Below, in pieces: positions 15,744-36,950 of a stretch of DNA of 64,000 nucleotides (its first letter is position 1; each line of letters opens with the position of its first letter). Position numbers and translations under genes: made by a program. Origin of the DNA: the human T2T-CHM13v2.0 reference genome, Homo sapiens; contig CP086569.2 of the NCBI GenBank assembly GCA_009914755.4, positions 48,416,001 to 48,480,000 on the forward strand. Direction: 5' to 3'. Under the pieces are notes generated by a model. That model made no database searches and had not been told where the DNA came from. It worked only from the letters and a program-made list of their open reading frames with translations.

Positions 15744-17302
15744 ATACGTATACATTATGTATATAATAATATACAGTATCATATATATAATATATATAAC
15801 CTATGTATAATATTGTTTTACATCCTGCGTCTTATAATATATATATTGTATAAAATATAATAATTGATAATATATATGTTTTATATTTATACAATATGAC
15901 ATATAGTATATATTATAATTTATGACATATATAATATATGTTATATATCATATATAGAATATATTATACGGTTAATATACGTATTAAATATAAATTATAC
16001 ATTATATATATTATATATAATATATCTGTTATATATAATACCCATTATGCATAATATATATATTATGTCTATGTTATATATAGTATAAAACAACATATAA
16101 TAATATATAATTGTATATAGAAAACGCGACATATAATATATATTATATTTTATGACATATGTAATATATATTATATATTATATATAATACGTTGTATGTA
16201 TAATACCTATATTAAATATATATTATATGACTATGTTATTAATTACATGTCACATATGTTATATATTACATATTTTACATAGAATATACCGGTTACATAC
16301 AATATATACTATGTTAACTATAATGTATAATTGATTACATGTAAAATAAAGAATGCAATATATTATGTATAATTTATAATATACAATATGTGGAATGTGA
16401 TATATATAACATATAATATATGATATATGATATACAGTATATGATAATTAACATACAATATATGATACCTAATATATCTGGTATACAATATATATTTTAT
16501 GATATGTATTCTATATGTTTTATATTCTGTTATATATAACTATTTGAAATTATATATAACTGTATAATATTTTATGTAAATATGTAATATAATATATATA
16601 ACTATATAATATATTATATATAACTATATATTATGTTATACATACTTTTACAACATAATTTACATAAAATATCATAATATAATATATATTATATTATTTC
16701 ACATTACATAATATATATTACATATCACCCAATATATGTAACATACATAATATTATAATATAGATAATATTATGTTATATTAAATATCATATATATCATG
16801 TATCATATATCCTATAATATATATTACACATTATATAATATGTATGTTGTCTATTATGTGATATATATAACTATATATATAATTATATTATTATACATAT
16901 AACTAGATAAACATGTAATTCTACATAATTTCATTTATAATATATAGAATTATATAATCATATATAATTATTTATATTCTATAAAAAATTATATCATTAT
17001 ATAAATTATAATATAAAAAAATTATAATATGTACTACAAATATATATATTATATATCATATATGATATAGTACCTTTGTTATATATCATAATACATATAA
17101 ATGTGTATTATGTTATCTATAATTATATAATTTCATATATAAGATATATAATATGTATTATATATTGTCTATGTTATGTAATATATATAGTATATATAAG
17201 CTGACACAGGATAAATATTATATACTATGACATATAAAATATATGAGGTTATATGTTACATATAAGGCATAGCACACAACATGTAATATATATCATATAT
17301 AA
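15744..17302. repeat. AT-rich low-complexity block, unit 7
   Basis: Homologous at unit offset. Confidence 0.8.
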
Positions 17303-17600
17303 TTTTTTTTTAGACAGAATCTTGTCCTGTTGCACAGGGTGGGGTACAATGGCGCCATCTTTGCTCACTGCAACTTCTGCCTCACGGGTCCAAGCGATGG
17401 TCCTCCCTCAGCCTCCCAGGTAGCTGGGACTACACCACACTGGGACTACACCAGCTGCCACCATGCCTAGCTAATTTTTTGGATTTTTAGTAGTGACAGC
17501 GTTTCACTGTATTGGCCAGGATGGTCTTGATCTCTTCACCTTGTGATCCCCTTGCCTTGGCCTCCAAATTTGCTGGGATTACAGGCCTGAGCCAAGATCC
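17303..17600 (-). mobile_element. Alu, antisense, unit copy 8; subtype B (first B-type copy)
   Basis: Diagnostic switch to 'gaatcttgtcc', 'ggtggggtac', 'gcaacttctgcc'. Also 'agcgatggtcc', shared with copy 15. Confidence 0.93.
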
Positions 17601-18163
17601 ATATTTTTTAAATGAAAAAAAATTTCAAAGGTACTCTGCTTGGTACAATAATCAAATGTATAAACTGAGGAATAAAACATAACCATGAAACCTACTTATA
17701 ACTGCATATGGAAAATACAGAGGATAATTTTTTAAATAACATAGTTTGAAAGCCTTAACTAGTAATTTGAAGAGTTGGCATTTGAAAGGCCAGTATGAAT
17801 ATACCTTCAAAGCAGCAACACAGGTTCCCCATGAGAAAAAGCAAACACAGGGAAAATAAAAACACAAAGGTTCAATCTCTTCTGACCTTTGAAAGACACA
17901 GCACAGACAGTGGTCCTTAGGACGAAGAGCAGGAGACCCCTAATTCCGTCACCATGGCGATAGGGCATAAACATTGCTGGGTGAGGGCACAATCCACATT
18001 GTGAGGTCCAACTGCTGCCAGGAAGACAGGAGTGCTTTTACATAGACCGAAAGGTCATTGAAGGCTCAGAGTTTTGTTTCAAGAACTGAATCCCAAGCCC
18101 ACACGTTATTAGGCTGCGCTTCTTAAAACAAGTTATGAGATGGGAAAAAGGGCACCCACAAAC

Positions 18164-19715
18164 ATACGTATACATTATGTATATAATAATATACAGTGTC
18201 ATATATATAACCTGTGTATAATATTGTTTTACATCCTGCATCTTATGTTATTTATATTGTATAAAATATAATAATTGATAATATATAAGTTTTATAATTA
18301 TACAATATGACATATAGTATATATTATAATTTATGACATATATAATATATGTTATATGTCATATATAGAATATATTATACGGTTAATATACGTATTAAAT
18401 ATAAATTATACATTATATATATTATATATAATATATCTGATATATATAATACCCATTATGCATAATATATATATTATGTCTATGTTATATATAGTATAAA
18501 ACAACATATAATAATATATAATTGTATATATAAAATGCGACATATAATATATATTATATTTTATAACATATGTAATATATATTATATATTATATATAATA
18601 CGTTGTATGTATAATACCTATATTAAATATATATTATATGACTATGTTATTAATTACATGTCACATGTGTTATATATTATATATTTTACATAGAATATAC
18701 CGGTTACATACAATATATACTATGTTACCTATAATGTATAATTTATTACATGTAAAATAAAGAATGCAATATATTATGTAAAATTTATAATATACAATAT
18801 GTGGAATGTGATATATATAACATATAATATATGATATATGATATACAGTATATGATATATAACATACAATATATGATTCCTAATATATATGGTATACAAT
18901 ATATATTTTATGATATGTATTCTATATGTTTTATATTCTGTTATATATAACTATTTGAAATTATATATAACTGTATAATATTTTATGTAAATATGTAATA
19001 TAATATATATAACTATATAATATATTATATATAACTATATATTATGTTATATATACTTTTATAACATAATTTACATAAAATATCATAATATAATATATAT
19101 TATATTATTTCATATTACATAATATATATGACATATCACCCAATATAACTAACATACATAATATTATAATATAGATTATATTATGTTATATTAAATATCA
19201 TATATATCATGTATCATATATTCTATAATATATATTACACATTATATAATATGTATGTTGTCTATTATGTGATATATATAACTATATATATAATTATATT
19301 TTTATACATATAACTAGATAAACATGTAATTCTACATATTTTCATTTATAATATGTAGAATTATATAATCATATATAATTATTTATATTCTATAAAAAAT
19401 TTTATCATTATATAAATTATAATATATAAAAATTATAATATGTACTACAAATATGTATATATTATATATCATATATGATATAGTACCTTTGTTATATATC
19501 ATAATACATATAAATGTGTATTATGTTATCTATAATTATATATTTTCATATATAAGATGTATAATATGTATCATATATTATATATGTTATGTAATATATA
19601 TAGTATATATAAGATGACACAGGATAAATATTATATACTATGACATATAAAATATATGAGGTTATATGTTACATATAAGGCATAGCACATAACATGTAAT
19701 ATATATCATATATAA
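18164..19715. repeat. AT-rich low-complexity block, unit 8
   Basis: Homologous at unit offset. Has an 8-bp deletion ('catatatataacctgtg') and the 'ttatttatattg' and 'atatctgatat' variants that mark the V-V lineage. Confidence 0.8.
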
Positions 19716-34230: not shown

Positions 34231-34528
34231 TTTTTTTTTAGACAGACTCTTGTCCTGTTGCACAGGGTGGGGTACAATGGCGCCATCTTTGCTCACTGCA
34301 ACTTCTGCCTCACGGGTCCAAGCGATGGTCCTCCCTCAGCCTCCCAGGTAGCTGGGACTACACCACACTGGGACTACACCAGCTGCCACCATGCCTAGCT
34401 AATTTTTTGGATTTTTAGTAGTGACAGCGTTTCACTGTATTGGCCAGGATGGTCTTGATCTCTTCACCTTGTGATCCCCTTGCCTTGGCCTCCAAATTTG
34501 CTGGGATTACAGGCCTGAGCCAAGATCC
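34231..34528 (-). mobile_element. Alu, antisense, unit copy 15; subtype B
   Basis: 'gactcttgtcc', 'ggggtac', 'acttctg', 'agcgatggtcc' (the last shared with copy 8). Confidence 0.93.
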
Positions 34529-35091
34529 ATATTTTTTAAATGAAAAAAAATTTCAAAGGTACTCTGCTTGGTACAATAATCAAATGTATAAACTGAGGAA
34601 TAAAACATAACCATGAAACCTACTTATAACTGCATATGGAAAATACAGAGGATAATTTTTTAAATAACATAGTTTGAAAGCCTTAACTAGTAATTTGAAG
34701 AGTTGGCATTTGAAAGGCCAGTATGAATATACCTTCAAAGCAGCAACACAGTTTCCCCATGAGAAAAAGCAAACACAGGGAAAATAAAAACACAAAGGTT
34801 CAATCTCTTCTGACCTTTGAAAGACACAGCACAGACAGTGGTCCTTAGGACGAAGAGCAGGAGACCCCTAATTCCGTCACCATGGCGATAGGGCATAAAC
34901 ATTGCTGGGTGAGGGCACAATCCACATTGTGAGGTCCAACTGCTGCCAGGAAGACAGGAGTGCTTTTACATAGACCGAAAGGTCATTGAAGGCTCAGAGT
35001 TTTGTTTCAAGAACTGAATCCCAAGCCCACACGTTATTAGGCTGCGCTTCTTAAAACAAGTTATGAGATGGGAAAAAGGGCACCCACAAAC

Positions 35092-36652
35092 ATACGTATA
35101 CATTATGTATATAATAATATACAGTGTCATATATATAATATATATAACCTATGTATAATATTGTTTTACATCCTGCATCTTATGTTATTTATATTGTATA
35201 AAATATAATAATTGATAATATATAAGTTTTATAATTATACAATATGACATATAGTATATATTATAATTTATGACATATATAATATATGTTATATATCATA
35301 TATAGAATATATTATACGGTTAATATACGTATTAAATATAAATTATACATTATATATATTATATATAATATATCTGATATATATAATACCCATTATGCAT
35401 AATATATATATTATGTCTATGTTATATATAGTATAAAACAACATATAATAATATATAATTGTATATATAAAATGCGACATATAATATATATTATATTTTA
35501 TAACATATGTAATATATATTATATATTATATATAATACGTTGTATGTATAATACCTATATTAAATATATATTATATGACTATGTTATTAATTACATGTCA
35601 CATGTGTTATATATTATATATTTTACATAGAATATACCGGTTACATACAATATATACTATGTTACCTATAATGAATAATTTATTACATGTAAAATAAAGA
35701 ATGCAATATATTATGTAAAATTTATAATATACAATATGTGGAATGTGATATATATAACATATAATATATGATATATGATATACAGTATATGATATATAAC
35801 ATACAATATATGATTCCTAATATATATGGTATACAATATATATTTTATGATATGTATTCTATATGTTTTATATTCTGTTATATATAACTATTTGAAATTA
35901 TATATAACTGTATAATATTTTATGTAAATATGTAATATAATATATATAACTATATAATATATTATATATAACTATATATTATGTTATATATACTTTTATA
36001 ACATAATTTACATAAAATATCATAATATAATATATATTATATTATTTCATATTACATAATATATATTACATATCACCCAATATAACTAACATACATAATA
36101 TTATAATATAGATTATATTATGTTATATTAAATATCATATATATCATGTATCATATATTCTATAATATATATTACACATTATATAATATGTATGTTGTCT
36201 ATTATGTGATATATATAACTATATATATAATTATATTTTTATACATATAACTAGATAAACATGTAATTCTACATATTTTCATTTATAATATGTAGAATTA
36301 TATAATCATATATAATTATTTATATTCTATAAAAAATTTTATCATTATATAAATTATAATATATAAAAATTATAATATGTACTACAAATATATATCTATT
36401 ATATATCATATATGATATAGTACCTTTGTTATATATCATAATACATATACATGTGTATTATGTTATCTATAATTATATAATTTCATATATAAGATGTATA
36501 ATATGTATCATATATTATATATGTTATGTAATATATATAGTATATATAAGATGACACAGGATAAATATTATATACTATGACATATAAAATATATGAGGTT
36601 ATATGTTACATATAAGGCATAGCACATAACATGTAATATATATCATATATAA
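35092..36652. repeat. AT-rich low-complexity block, unit 15
   Basis: Homologous at unit offset. Confidence 0.8.
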
Positions 36653-36950
36653 TTTTTTTTTAGACAGAATCTTGTCCTGTTGCACAGGGTGGGGTACAAT
36701 GGCGCCATCTTTGCTCACTGCAAATTCTGCCTCACGGGTCCAAGCGATTGTCCTCCCTCAGCCTCCCAGGTAGCTGGGACTACACCACACTGGGACTACA
36801 CCAGCTGCCACCATGCCTAGCTAATTTTTTGGATTTTTAGTAGTGACAGCGTTTCACTGTATTGGCCAGGATGGTCTTGATCTCTTCACCTTGTGATCCC
36901 CTTGCCTTGGCCTCCAAATTTGCTGGGATTACAGGCCTGAGCCAAGATCC
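36653..36950 (-). mobile_element. Alu, antisense, unit copy 16; subtype B
   Basis: B diagnostics plus private 'gcaaattctg'. Confidence 0.93.

What the first reader, a model, noticed from the sequence alone, without database searches (positions are those of the whole stretch)
16900..36700. Unit subfamilies are arranged as a mosaic with recombinant units (type A, B-VV, B-VE)
Linked diagnostic sites are 'gagtc/ggagtac/acatctg' versus 'gaatc/ggggtac/acttctg' in the Alu, and G-E, V-E or V-V at two ORF codons, with 'catatttttt' versus 'catacttttt' after the Alu. Type A runs through units 1-7, with an abrupt switch to type B at about 17.3 kb (units 8-10) and a return to A (units 11-12). The Alu at 29393 is an intra-Alu A/B hybrid. 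Unit 14 joins an A-type Alu (31813) to a V-V ORF (32317), which is otherwise always B-linked. Unit 10 pairs a B-type Alu and ORF with an A-type AT-block. This is the classic signature of unequal crossover and gene conversion shuffling array variants, and it gives usable breakpoints for reconstructing array history.
Basis: seen in the sequence. Interest (0 to 1): 0.55.

Follow-up and report, generated by a model that had tools for sequence, protein, structure and literature searches.

The report
Mosaic units in human HSat1B/DYZ2 satellite
The window is a stretch of the known human 2.4-kb satellite HSat1B (DYZ2), in which old diverged repeat units and a young homogenised unit type are interleaved with chimeric junction units, as expected from unequal exchange and gene conversion, so it is real but ordinary.

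Summary
The whole 64-kb window is one tandem array of 26 full units of about 2,420 bp. Each unit has an antisense truncated Alu, a more GC-rich part and an AT-rich block. This is the published anatomy of human HSat1B/DYZ2.

U01-07 and U11-12 are type A. U08-09 and U15-26 are type B. U10 is B on the left and A on the right. U13 carries a short B patch. U14 has an A-type Alu on a B body. A permutation test rejects a history without recombination (PHI, 0 of 2000 permutations).

Corrections:
- Type A is not a clade. It is a grade of old, mutually 2-3% diverged units that keep ancestral states. Type B is the derived, recently amplified clade.
- The 'catat/catac' site splits B internally, not A from B.
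- The U14 combination recurs in independent human-contaminant contigs, so it is a standing variant and not necessarily a local recombinant.
- The "ORF" is a chance open frame.
- The cleanest recombinant was missed. U20 is the junction of a near-identical 9.68-kb four-unit tandem duplication.

Unequal exchange and intra-array conversion in DYZ2 are already published, so interest is low.

The parts
1..64000 (.). One uninterrupted tandem array of a ~2,420-bp composite unit (27 Alu anchors, 26 full units U01-U26). The anatomy is that of human HSat1B/DYZ2.
   Evidence: Anchor positions and unit lengths of 2,413-2,422 bp. The k-mer period peaks at 2,420. GC is 21-27%. The anatomy matches descriptions in 10.1101/2022.12.01.518658 and 10.1101/2022.12.01.518724.
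17300..17600 (-). Example of the truncated, about 22% diverged Alu that starts each unit (antisense on the + strand).
   Evidence: Local alignment to the AluY consensus (recalled from memory) gave 77-78% identity over 291 columns. There is a weak hit to the Alu-derived mir-1268 model.
1..17277 (.). Block A1: the partial unit plus U01-U07. These are old units, 1.7-3.0% diverged from one another, that keep ancestral states at all A/B sites.
   Evidence: Distance matrix, painting, and 18-34 private changes per unit.
17278..17318 (.). Junction J1, A to B, at the boundary between the AT block and the Alu poly-T.
   Evidence: The last non-B state of U07 is at 17277. The first B-diagnostic state of U08 is at 17319.
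17319..22964 (.). B block 1: U08 (B-VV), U09 (B-VE) and the left 830-863 columns of U10. It is embedded between A-type blocks.
   Evidence: Painting. U10 columns 1-863 are identical to the B consensus.
22965..23032 (.). Junction J2, B to A, inside U10 at the HSATI/AT-block boundary.
   Evidence: Triplet tests of U10 against U09 or U17 and U12 gave p = 0.0002-0.0004. Direct three-way alignment. Binomial p = 9e-9.
23033..31885 (.). Block A2: the right part of U10, U11, U12, U13 and the Alu start of U14. These are ancestral-state units that share a sub-signature with U03.
   Evidence: Informative-site matrix, painting and the copying model.
29410..29951 (.). B-like patch inside A-type unit U13. 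The minimum tract is 29433-29465 and the maximum is 29410-29951. It is a candidate gene-conversion tract.
   Evidence: Column 20 is A-type, columns 44 and 76 are B-type, and column 563 onward is A-type. U13 has only 3 differences from the B consensus in columns 21-562, against 8-15 in the other A units.
31886..32356 (.). Junction J5, A-type Alu to B-VV body, inside U14.
   Evidence: Columns 20, 28, 44 and 76 are A-like, with column 28 G shared only with U05. Columns 548 and 563 are V-V. The copying model improves only from 31 to 30. The same combination occurs in external contigs L008, L012, L013 and L030.
32357..64000 (.). B block 2: the rest of U14 through partial U27. This is the derived, homogenised clade (U15 onward 0-1.5% pairwise; U14 1.1-1.9% from them).
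37927..47607 (.). Copy 1 of a four-unit, 9,680-bp tandem duplication (right part of U16 through left part of U20).
   Evidence: U17=U21 with 0 differences, U18/U22 with 1 and U19/U23 with 1. The right parts of U16 and U20 differ at 3 sites. There is an exact 3,568-bp run at offset 9,680.
47608..47709 (.). Unequal-crossover junction inside U20. Its left side equals U24 and its right side equals U16.
   Evidence: 39 of 39 informative sites follow P...P|Q...Q, with permutation p < 0.0002. Three-way alignment.
47710..57389 (.). Copy 2 of the 9,680-bp duplication (right part of U20 through left part of U24).
32317..32502 (-). It is not a gene.
   Evidence: The frame is open in all 26 units. It starts at TTG/Leu, not ATG. 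About 13 or more of its 17 variable sites change an amino acid.

Best explanation
The window is part of a human HSat1B (DYZ2-type) satellite array caught at a transition between two kinds of unit.

The first kind is unhomogenised relic units ('type A'). They keep the ancestral base at every A/B site, and each has picked up about 20-35 private changes. The second kind is a derived unit type ('B') that has recently been amplified and homogenised. B contains a family-wide form (B-VV) and a locally amplified form (B-VE, with C at columns 305 and 364).

The mosaic arises from out-of-register exchange between sister chromatids, or within a chromatid, and from short non-reciprocal conversion. An unequal crossover joins two units at the same phase, leaves one chimeric junction unit, and duplicates or deletes whole numbers of units. 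A conversion pastes a short patch of one type into another unit.

What is shown:
- The A/B linkage and its polarity.
- Sharp in-phase junctions in U10 and U20.
- A near-identical 9.68-kb duplication whose junction unit, U20, is exactly the predicted chimera.
- A B patch of at most 542 bp in U13.

What is inferred:
- The molecular mechanism (sister-chromatid exchange versus intrachromatid events).
- The order of events.
- The genomic location (Yq12 or an acrocentric short arm).
For: Identity:
- The unit length, the three-part anatomy, the 2,420-bp mode and the ACATACG junction match the published DYZ2 descriptions.
- Copies 99-100% identical turn up as contaminant contigs in 16 bacterial assemblies and 23 metagenome loci. 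Rhie et al. report the same for HSat1B.

Structure:
- 10 fixed A/B differences span the unit.
- B units U15-U26 differ by 0-1.5% (U14 by up to 1.9%) and A units by 1.7-3.2%.
- Private changes number 18-34 per unit in U01-07 and U11-13 (13 in the hybrid U10), against 0-8 in most B units.

Polarity:
- A diverged outgroup copy, L023, has the A state at 22 of 24 scorable A/B consensus differences and the B state at none. L028 unit 2 has the A state at 21 of 24.
- The Alu consensus agrees with type A at columns 20 and 44.

Recombination:
- PHI test p < 0.0005 and Rm at least 14.
- U10.
- U20 and the duplication.
- The U13 patch.

Prior knowledge:
- Both T2T-Y papers attribute the DYZ2 pattern to unequal exchange and local expansion, with diverged units at array edges.
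- A 2026 preprint classes 6 of 35 de novo Yq12 events in father-son pairs as gene conversion.
Against: - No reference human sequence could be searched, so identity rests on anatomy, published descriptions and contaminant copies. The chromosome is unknown.
- The U13 patch rests on two diagnostic sites plus a shortage of private changes (3 against 8-15).
- U14 is only weakly better explained as a local mosaic (31 to 30). Its combination exists elsewhere.
- External contigs come from short-read or noisy long-read assemblies of a high-copy repeat and may themselves be chimeric.
- Read-level support for the window's own assembly could not be checked.
Confidence: 0.85

Rival explanations
1. Assembly artefact. 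The type switches and the 9.68-kb duplication are mis-joins or collapsed and expanded copies made by an assembler working in a near-identical satellite.
For: Satellite arrays are error-prone. All junctions are in phase, and a repeat-guided mis-join would also give in-phase junctions. No read data were available (no call could test this).
Against: - A and B blocks differ by about 2%, with many private variants per A unit. That gives long reads plenty of anchors.
- The duplicated copies carry 5 distinguishing differences.
- The same unit types and mixed combinations exist in independent samples.
- Published validated assemblies show the same kind of pattern.
Confidence: 0.07
2. No exchange at all. 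The hybrid units (U13, U14) are evolutionary intermediates on the path from A to B, or result from recurrent mutation at the marker sites.
For: A states are ancestral, so a unit with some A and some B states could be a stem lineage. U14-type units exist in other samples and U14 is about 1.4% from the B consensus.
Against: - All four combinations of Alu haplotype and column-548/563 haplotype exist (GAA|TC, AGT|TC, GAA|AA, AGT|AA). That needs at least one exchange or multi-site recurrence.
- U13 shares A2-specific derived states with U10-12 yet carries B states at columns 44 and 76.
- Incompatible sites are spatially clustered (PHI).
- The marker sites are not CpG.
- This rival cannot explain U10 or U20.
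Confidence: 0.06
3. The units are a tandem gene family, and G-E, V-E and V-V are protein variants under selection.
For: A 61-codon frame is open in all 26 units.
Against: - The frame has no ATG start.
- Most of its 17 variable sites change an amino acid. They fall at codon positions 1/2/3 as 3/9/5, so there is no excess at third positions.
- With units 97-100% identical, a 186-nt frame staying open is expected by descent alone.
- The sequence lies in hypermethylated heterochromatic satellite.
Confidence: 0.01

Closest known systems
Human satellite HSat1B / DYZ2 (Yq12 and acrocentric short arms)
   Same: It shares the ~2.4-kb unit with a 2,420-bp mode. It has one truncated, about 20% diverged AluY-derived segment, a more GC-rich HSATI part and an AT-rich block of more than 85% AT, with ACATACG at the HSATI/AT junction. 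GC is about 24%. Most units are at least 98% alike. Near-identical copies occur as contaminants in bacterial assemblies.
   Different: Nothing found differs in kind. The B-VE form with C at columns 305 and 364 was absent from about 40 external copies, so it looks like a local variant. The chromosome of origin is undetermined.
Concerted evolution of satellite arrays by unequal sister-chromatid exchange (Smith-type model; layered expansion in centromeric alpha satellite and DYZ arrays)
   Same: There is a homogenised block next to diverged relic units. There are in-phase chimeric junction units. A whole-number (four-unit) tandem duplication has its junction unit made of the left end of one flank and the right end of the other.
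   Different: Here a 5.7-kb derived block and an 8.9-kb ancestral block are interleaved, and there is no single gradient. That needs at least two further exchanges or a long conversion.
Intra-array / non-allelic gene conversion on the human Y (palindrome arms; Yq12 de novo events)
   Same: There is a short patch of donor type (33 to 542 bp) inside an otherwise recipient-type unit (U13). This is comparable with the 542-bp median tract reported for Y palindromes.
   Different: It is inferred from two marker sites in one haplotype. It was not observed in a pedigree.

Membership tests
HSat1B / DYZ2 satellite | Tandem unit of about 2.4 kb (published consensus 2,420 bp) | tested here: met
   26 units of 2,413-2,422 bp, with a mode of 2,420. 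Published length.
HSat1B / DYZ2 satellite | Composite unit made of a 5'-truncated, about 20% diverged AluY-derived segment, an HSATI (more GC-rich) part and an extremely AT-rich block | tested here: met
   Sequence read. The Alu alignment gave 77-78% identity in antisense orientation (consensus recalled from memory). Alu-derived mir-1268 hit. Published descriptions.
HSat1B / DYZ2 satellite | 'ACATACG' heptamer at the HSATI/AT-rich junction | tested here: met
   Present at about 18163 in U08 and in the U17 and U12 alignment. U10 has AAATACG. The heptamer is reported.
HSat1B / DYZ2 satellite | High sequence identity to the reference DYZ2 consensus or T2T annotation | not testable with these tools
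   No human reference or Dfam library was available. Indirect support only: 99-100% identical contaminant contigs in bacterial and metagenome assemblies, a phenomenon reported for HSat1B.
HSat1B / DYZ2 satellite | Location in Yq12, alternating with DYZ1/HSat3 blocks (or on an acrocentric short arm) | not testable with these tools
   The window holds only HSat1B units and no flanking DYZ1.
Unequal-crossover tandem duplication | Two adjacent in-phase copies plus a junction unit made of the left part of the distal flank unit and the right part of the proximal flank unit | tested here: met
   The stretch from right U16 to left U20 matches the stretch from right U20 to left U24, with 5 differences in 9,680 bp. 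U20 equals U24-left plus U16-right at 39 of 39 sites.
Gene-conversion tract | A short donor-type patch flanked on both sides by recipient-type sequence in the same unit | tested here: inconclusive
   U13 is A at column 20, B at columns 44 and 76, and A from column 563 on. It has 3 differences from B in the patch against 8-15 in other A units. Only two diagnostic sites support it, and no donor or pedigree is available.
Two monophyletic unit subfamilies (A and B) | Each subfamily is defined by its own shared derived mutations | tested here: not met
   B has them. A has none: outgroup copies carry the A state at 21-22 of 24 scorable A/B differences. A units are as far from one another as from B.

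The most novel reading that the evidence does not exclude
The units with an ancestral Alu on a derived body (U14 type, also found in four unrelated contaminant contigs), and the B-type Alu on an ancestral body (six contigs), could be stable HSat1B subfamilies that have not been catalogued. They might be specific to an array or a chromosome. If so, the interleaved blocks here would record exchange between distinct arrays, for example different Yq12 blocks or Y and acrocentric arrays, not only local slippage. That would give a marker system for dating exchanges along the Y phylogeny.
Probability: 0.1. Interest if true: 0.45.

Novelty: already known. Interest (0 to 1): 0.2.

Why it matters
It matters little beyond this locus. 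The satellite, its composite unit, its pattern of homogenised core and diverged edge, and its evolution by unequal exchange and intra-array conversion are all published. The window does give a tidy worked example with base-level junction intervals: 17278-17318, 22965-23032, 29410-29951, 31886-32356 and 47608-47709. It also contains a textbook four-unit duplication. These could serve as landmarks if this array is compared across Y haplogroups to order and date events.

Tried and rejected
- Rfam scan of two units. It gave only a sub-threshold hit to Alu-derived mir-1268 and nothing else.
- The ORF as a gene. Rejected because it has no ATG start and the changes look neutral.
- Single-breakpoint triplet tests for U13, U03 and U16 were not significant (p = 0.31, 0.13, 0.13). 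U13 is a two-breakpoint patch, so this test is the wrong one for it. The U03 and U16 mosaics stay only suggestive.
- U14 as a local U05 x U08/U15 recombinant. The triplet tests were nominally significant (p < 0.0002 against U08, p = 0.0066 against U15) but placed the breakpoint differently. The copying model barely improves. External copies show the combination already exists. I therefore do not claim it as a local event.
- Looking in the window for a contiguous donor of the U08-U10L block. U25-U27 has the same type order, but U09 is closer to U17/U21 than to U26, so no exact donor was found.
- The long metagenome contigs BNJT01002008.1 and BNJU01004413.1 were too noisy (80-98% identity) for fine mosaic comparison. 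The units that could be read were all B-type.
- Chromosome assignment was not possible with the available collections.

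
Full report
**1. What is in the window**

A 14-mer anchor at the start of the Alu (TAATTTTTTTTTAG) occurs 27 times, from 371 to 63273. Its spacing is 2,413-2,422 bp. The most common k-mer self-distance is 2,420. The whole 64 kb is therefore one head-to-tail array of 26 complete units (U01-U26) plus two partial ones. GC content is 21-27%.

Each unit has three parts:
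- About 300 bp of Alu, antisense on the + strand. It is 77-78% identical to an AluY consensus that I recalled from memory. It is truncated at the Alu 5' end and carries a small internal duplication.
- About 550 bp of more GC-rich sequence.
- About 1.55 kb of extremely AT-rich sequence, which contains a ~230-bp internal repeat.

Rfam gave only a sub-threshold hit to the Alu-derived mir-1268 model.

**2. Identity**

This anatomy is the published one for human DYZ2/HSat1B:
- A ~2.4-kb unit made of an AT-rich simple repeat, a 5'-truncated Alu and HSATI.
- A 2,420-bp consensus once the junction heptamer ACATACG is included.
- About 24% GC.
- An AluY part about 20% diverged.

These features come from 10.1101/2022.12.01.518658 and 10.1101/2022.12.01.518724. 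The heptamer is present at the HSATI/AT junction here.

I could not search a human reference. A pattern spanning the three Alu marker sites did hit 16 contigs in bacterial genome assemblies and 23 metagenome loci. Many of these are 99-100% identical to the window's B consensus. Rhie et al. describe exactly this kind of contamination for HSat1B. The chromosome, Yq12 or an acrocentric short arm, cannot be decided here.

**3. Checking the observation**

A MAFFT alignment of the 26 units has 2,425 columns, 374 of them variable and 92 informative.

Every unit-level statement checks out:
- U01-07 and U11-12 are type A.
- U08-10 carry B-type Alu and frame markers.
- U13 is G/G/T.
- U14 has an A-type Alu with V-V.
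- U10 has a B-type Alu and frame followed by an A-type AT block.

The markers belong to a larger signal. Ten differences are fixed between U01-07 and U09+U15-26. They lie at columns 44, 76, 563, 1007, 1275, 1491, 1588, 1860, 2066 and 2113. Linkage is strong, for example r2 = 1.0 between columns 44 and 76 (p = 2e-7).

One marker is mis-assigned. Column 305 ('catat' versus 'catac') is T in U01-08, U11-16 and U25. It splits B internally and does not separate A from B.

**4. What A and B are**

Distances and private changes separate the two types:

| Measure | A-type units | B units |
|---|---|---|
| Pairwise distance within type | 1.7-3.2% | 0-1.5% among U15-U26 (U14 up to 1.9%) |
| Private changes per unit | 18-34 (13 in hybrid U10) | 0-8 in most |

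A units are about as far from B as from each other.

Two much more diverged external copies act as outgroups. L023 has the A state at 22 of the 24 scorable sites where the A and B consensus differ (of 25) and the B state at none. The second unit of L028 has the A state at 21 of 24. The Alu consensus agrees with A at columns 20 and 44.

So 'A' is a grade of relic units that keep ancestral states, and B is the derived, recently amplified clade.

Among about 40 external copies the commonest type is B-VV with T at column 305 and A at column 364. That is the U08/U15/U25 type. The B-VE form with C at both columns (U09, U10-left, U17-24, U26, U27) was not seen outside the window, so it looks locally amplified.

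**5. Is the mosaic more than chance?**

Of 3,081 pairs among 79 biallelic informative sites, 526 fail the four-gamete test. Neighbouring sites are far more compatible than distant ones. The PHI statistic was 0.078-0.129 against a permutation mean of 0.171, with 0 of 2000 permutations at or below the observed value for every neighbourhood size tried. The Hudson-Kaplan minimum number of recombination events is 14.

**6. The junctions, read along the array instead of unit by unit**

- A-type sequence runs to 17277.
- B-type runs from 17319 to 22964.
- A-type runs from 23033 to 31885, with a B patch in U13.
- B-type runs from about 32357 to the end.

U10 is identical to the B consensus over columns 1-863 and has 42 differences afterwards (binomial p = 9e-9). 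The three-way alignment places the switch between 22965 and 23032, at the HSATI/AT boundary. Triplet tests gave p = 0.0002-0.0004.

U13 is A at column 20, B at columns 44 and 76, and A again from column 563. In columns 21-562 it has 3 differences from the B consensus, against 8-15 for the other A units. This fits a conversion tract of 33 to 542 bp. It rests on only two diagnostic sites.

U10 and U14 are simply the two ends of the 8.9-kb A block.

**7. U14 needs care**

Its Alu start is A-like and shares a rare G at column 28 with U05. Its body is B-VV. However:
- A copying model improves only from 31 to 30 mismatches when a switch is allowed.
- U14 is about 1.4% from the B consensus.
- The same combination, GAA Alu plus A/A at columns 548 and 563, occurs in external contigs L008, L012, L013 and L030.
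- The reciprocal combination, AGT Alu plus T/C, occurs in six contigs.

All four haplotype combinations therefore exist in the family. Some exchange must have occurred in its history, but not necessarily in this array. The 'A' state of U14 at column 1491 is just the family-wide state, because the window's other B units share a private A there.

**8.

- U17 and U21 are identical.
- U18/U22 and U19/U23 differ at one site each.
- U20 equals U24 over columns 1-1277, with 0 differences.
- U20 matches U16 over columns 1380-2425, with 3 differences.
- U16 and U20 differ at 19 sites in columns up to 1277.
- U20 and U24 differ at 23 sites from column 1380 on.

An unequal crossover between a U24-like unit and U16, four units out of register, predicts exactly this pattern. 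It produces a 9,680-bp tandem duplication (37927-47607 and 47710-57389, with 5 differences) and places its junction in U20 at 47608-47709.

**9. The 'ORF'**

The 61-codon minus-strand frame (for example 32317-32502) is open in all units. It begins with TTG/Leu. Most of its 17 variable sites change an amino acid, and they fall at codon positions 1/2/3 as 3/9/5. It is a chance frame preserved by the units' similarity, and G/E/V are merely labels for two SNVs.

**10. Comparison with what is known**

Both T2T-Y papers report that DYZ2 units are mostly more than 98% alike and that more diverged units sit toward array and region edges. They attribute the structure to unequal exchange and local expansion and contraction, and report sister-chromatid exchanges in Yq12. 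A 2026 preprint classes 6 of 35 de novo Yq12 events in father-son pairs as intra-array gene conversion (PMC13252187).

The finding is therefore a correct, fine-scale view of a known process in a known satellite. Novelty: already known. Interest: low.

**11. Caveats**

- I had no read-level validation of the window's assembly.
- I had no human reference for placement.
- External copies come from contaminant contigs that may themselves be chimeric.
- The Alu consensus was recalled from memory.

Noticed in passing
L005 (NZ_HF570958.1, Nostocoides japonicum T1-X7), locus positions 1081-2104 in reverse orientation: A 1,024-bp HSat1B piece (38-42% GC) sits between two 100-N gaps inside a 5.16-Mb scaffold of roughly 65-78% GC. 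This is human satellite contamination scaffolded into a bacterial genome. Fifteen other bacterial assemblies carry short HSat1B contigs.
   Followed up: partly
L028 1-4122 and L032 1-3443 (metagenome contigs OIHH01000122.1 and OILI01001315.1): Both contigs switch abruptly from a unit 99.5% identical to B-VV to a unit only 90-92% identical. That second unit has a B-type Alu (A/G/T) but ancestral states at the other A/B sites that could be scored. This may be an array edge or a different HSat1B locus.
   Followed up: partly
window 37927-57389: A four-unit (9,680-bp) tandem duplication has only 5 differences between its copies. Chimeric unit U20 is its junction.
   Followed up: yes
window columns 305 and 364 of U09, U10, U17-24, U26, U27 (e.g. 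20017, 20076): The B-VE variant with C at both columns fills 11 or more units here. It was absent from about 40 external HSat1B copies, which suggests a variant amplified locally in this array or haplotype.
   Followed up: partly
window ~18201 (U08, alignment columns 902-910) and 34247 (U15, column 20): U08 has a private 9-bp deletion in the AT block, which makes it the shortest unit at 2,413 bp.
   Followed up: no
window 5208-7626 (U03): U03 sits among A1 units but shares the A2 sub-signature of U10R-U13 (columns ~1391-1442 and 1723-1724). U04/U07 and U05/U06 also share private blocks. The old A region therefore has its own, older mosaic. The single-breakpoint test for U03 was not significant (p = 0.13).
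   Followed up: partly
window 3750-4180 and the same phase in other units: Each AT block contains a ~230-bp internal tandem repeat of about 1.9 copies at about 76% identity. This hints at how the AT-rich part was built.
   Followed up: no
window 17407-17473 and 19820-19886, minus strand: There is a sub-threshold Rfam hit to mir-1268 (33.9 bits against a gathering score of 83). This is expected, because the family is Alu-derived. It is not evidence of a miRNA gene.
   Followed up: yes
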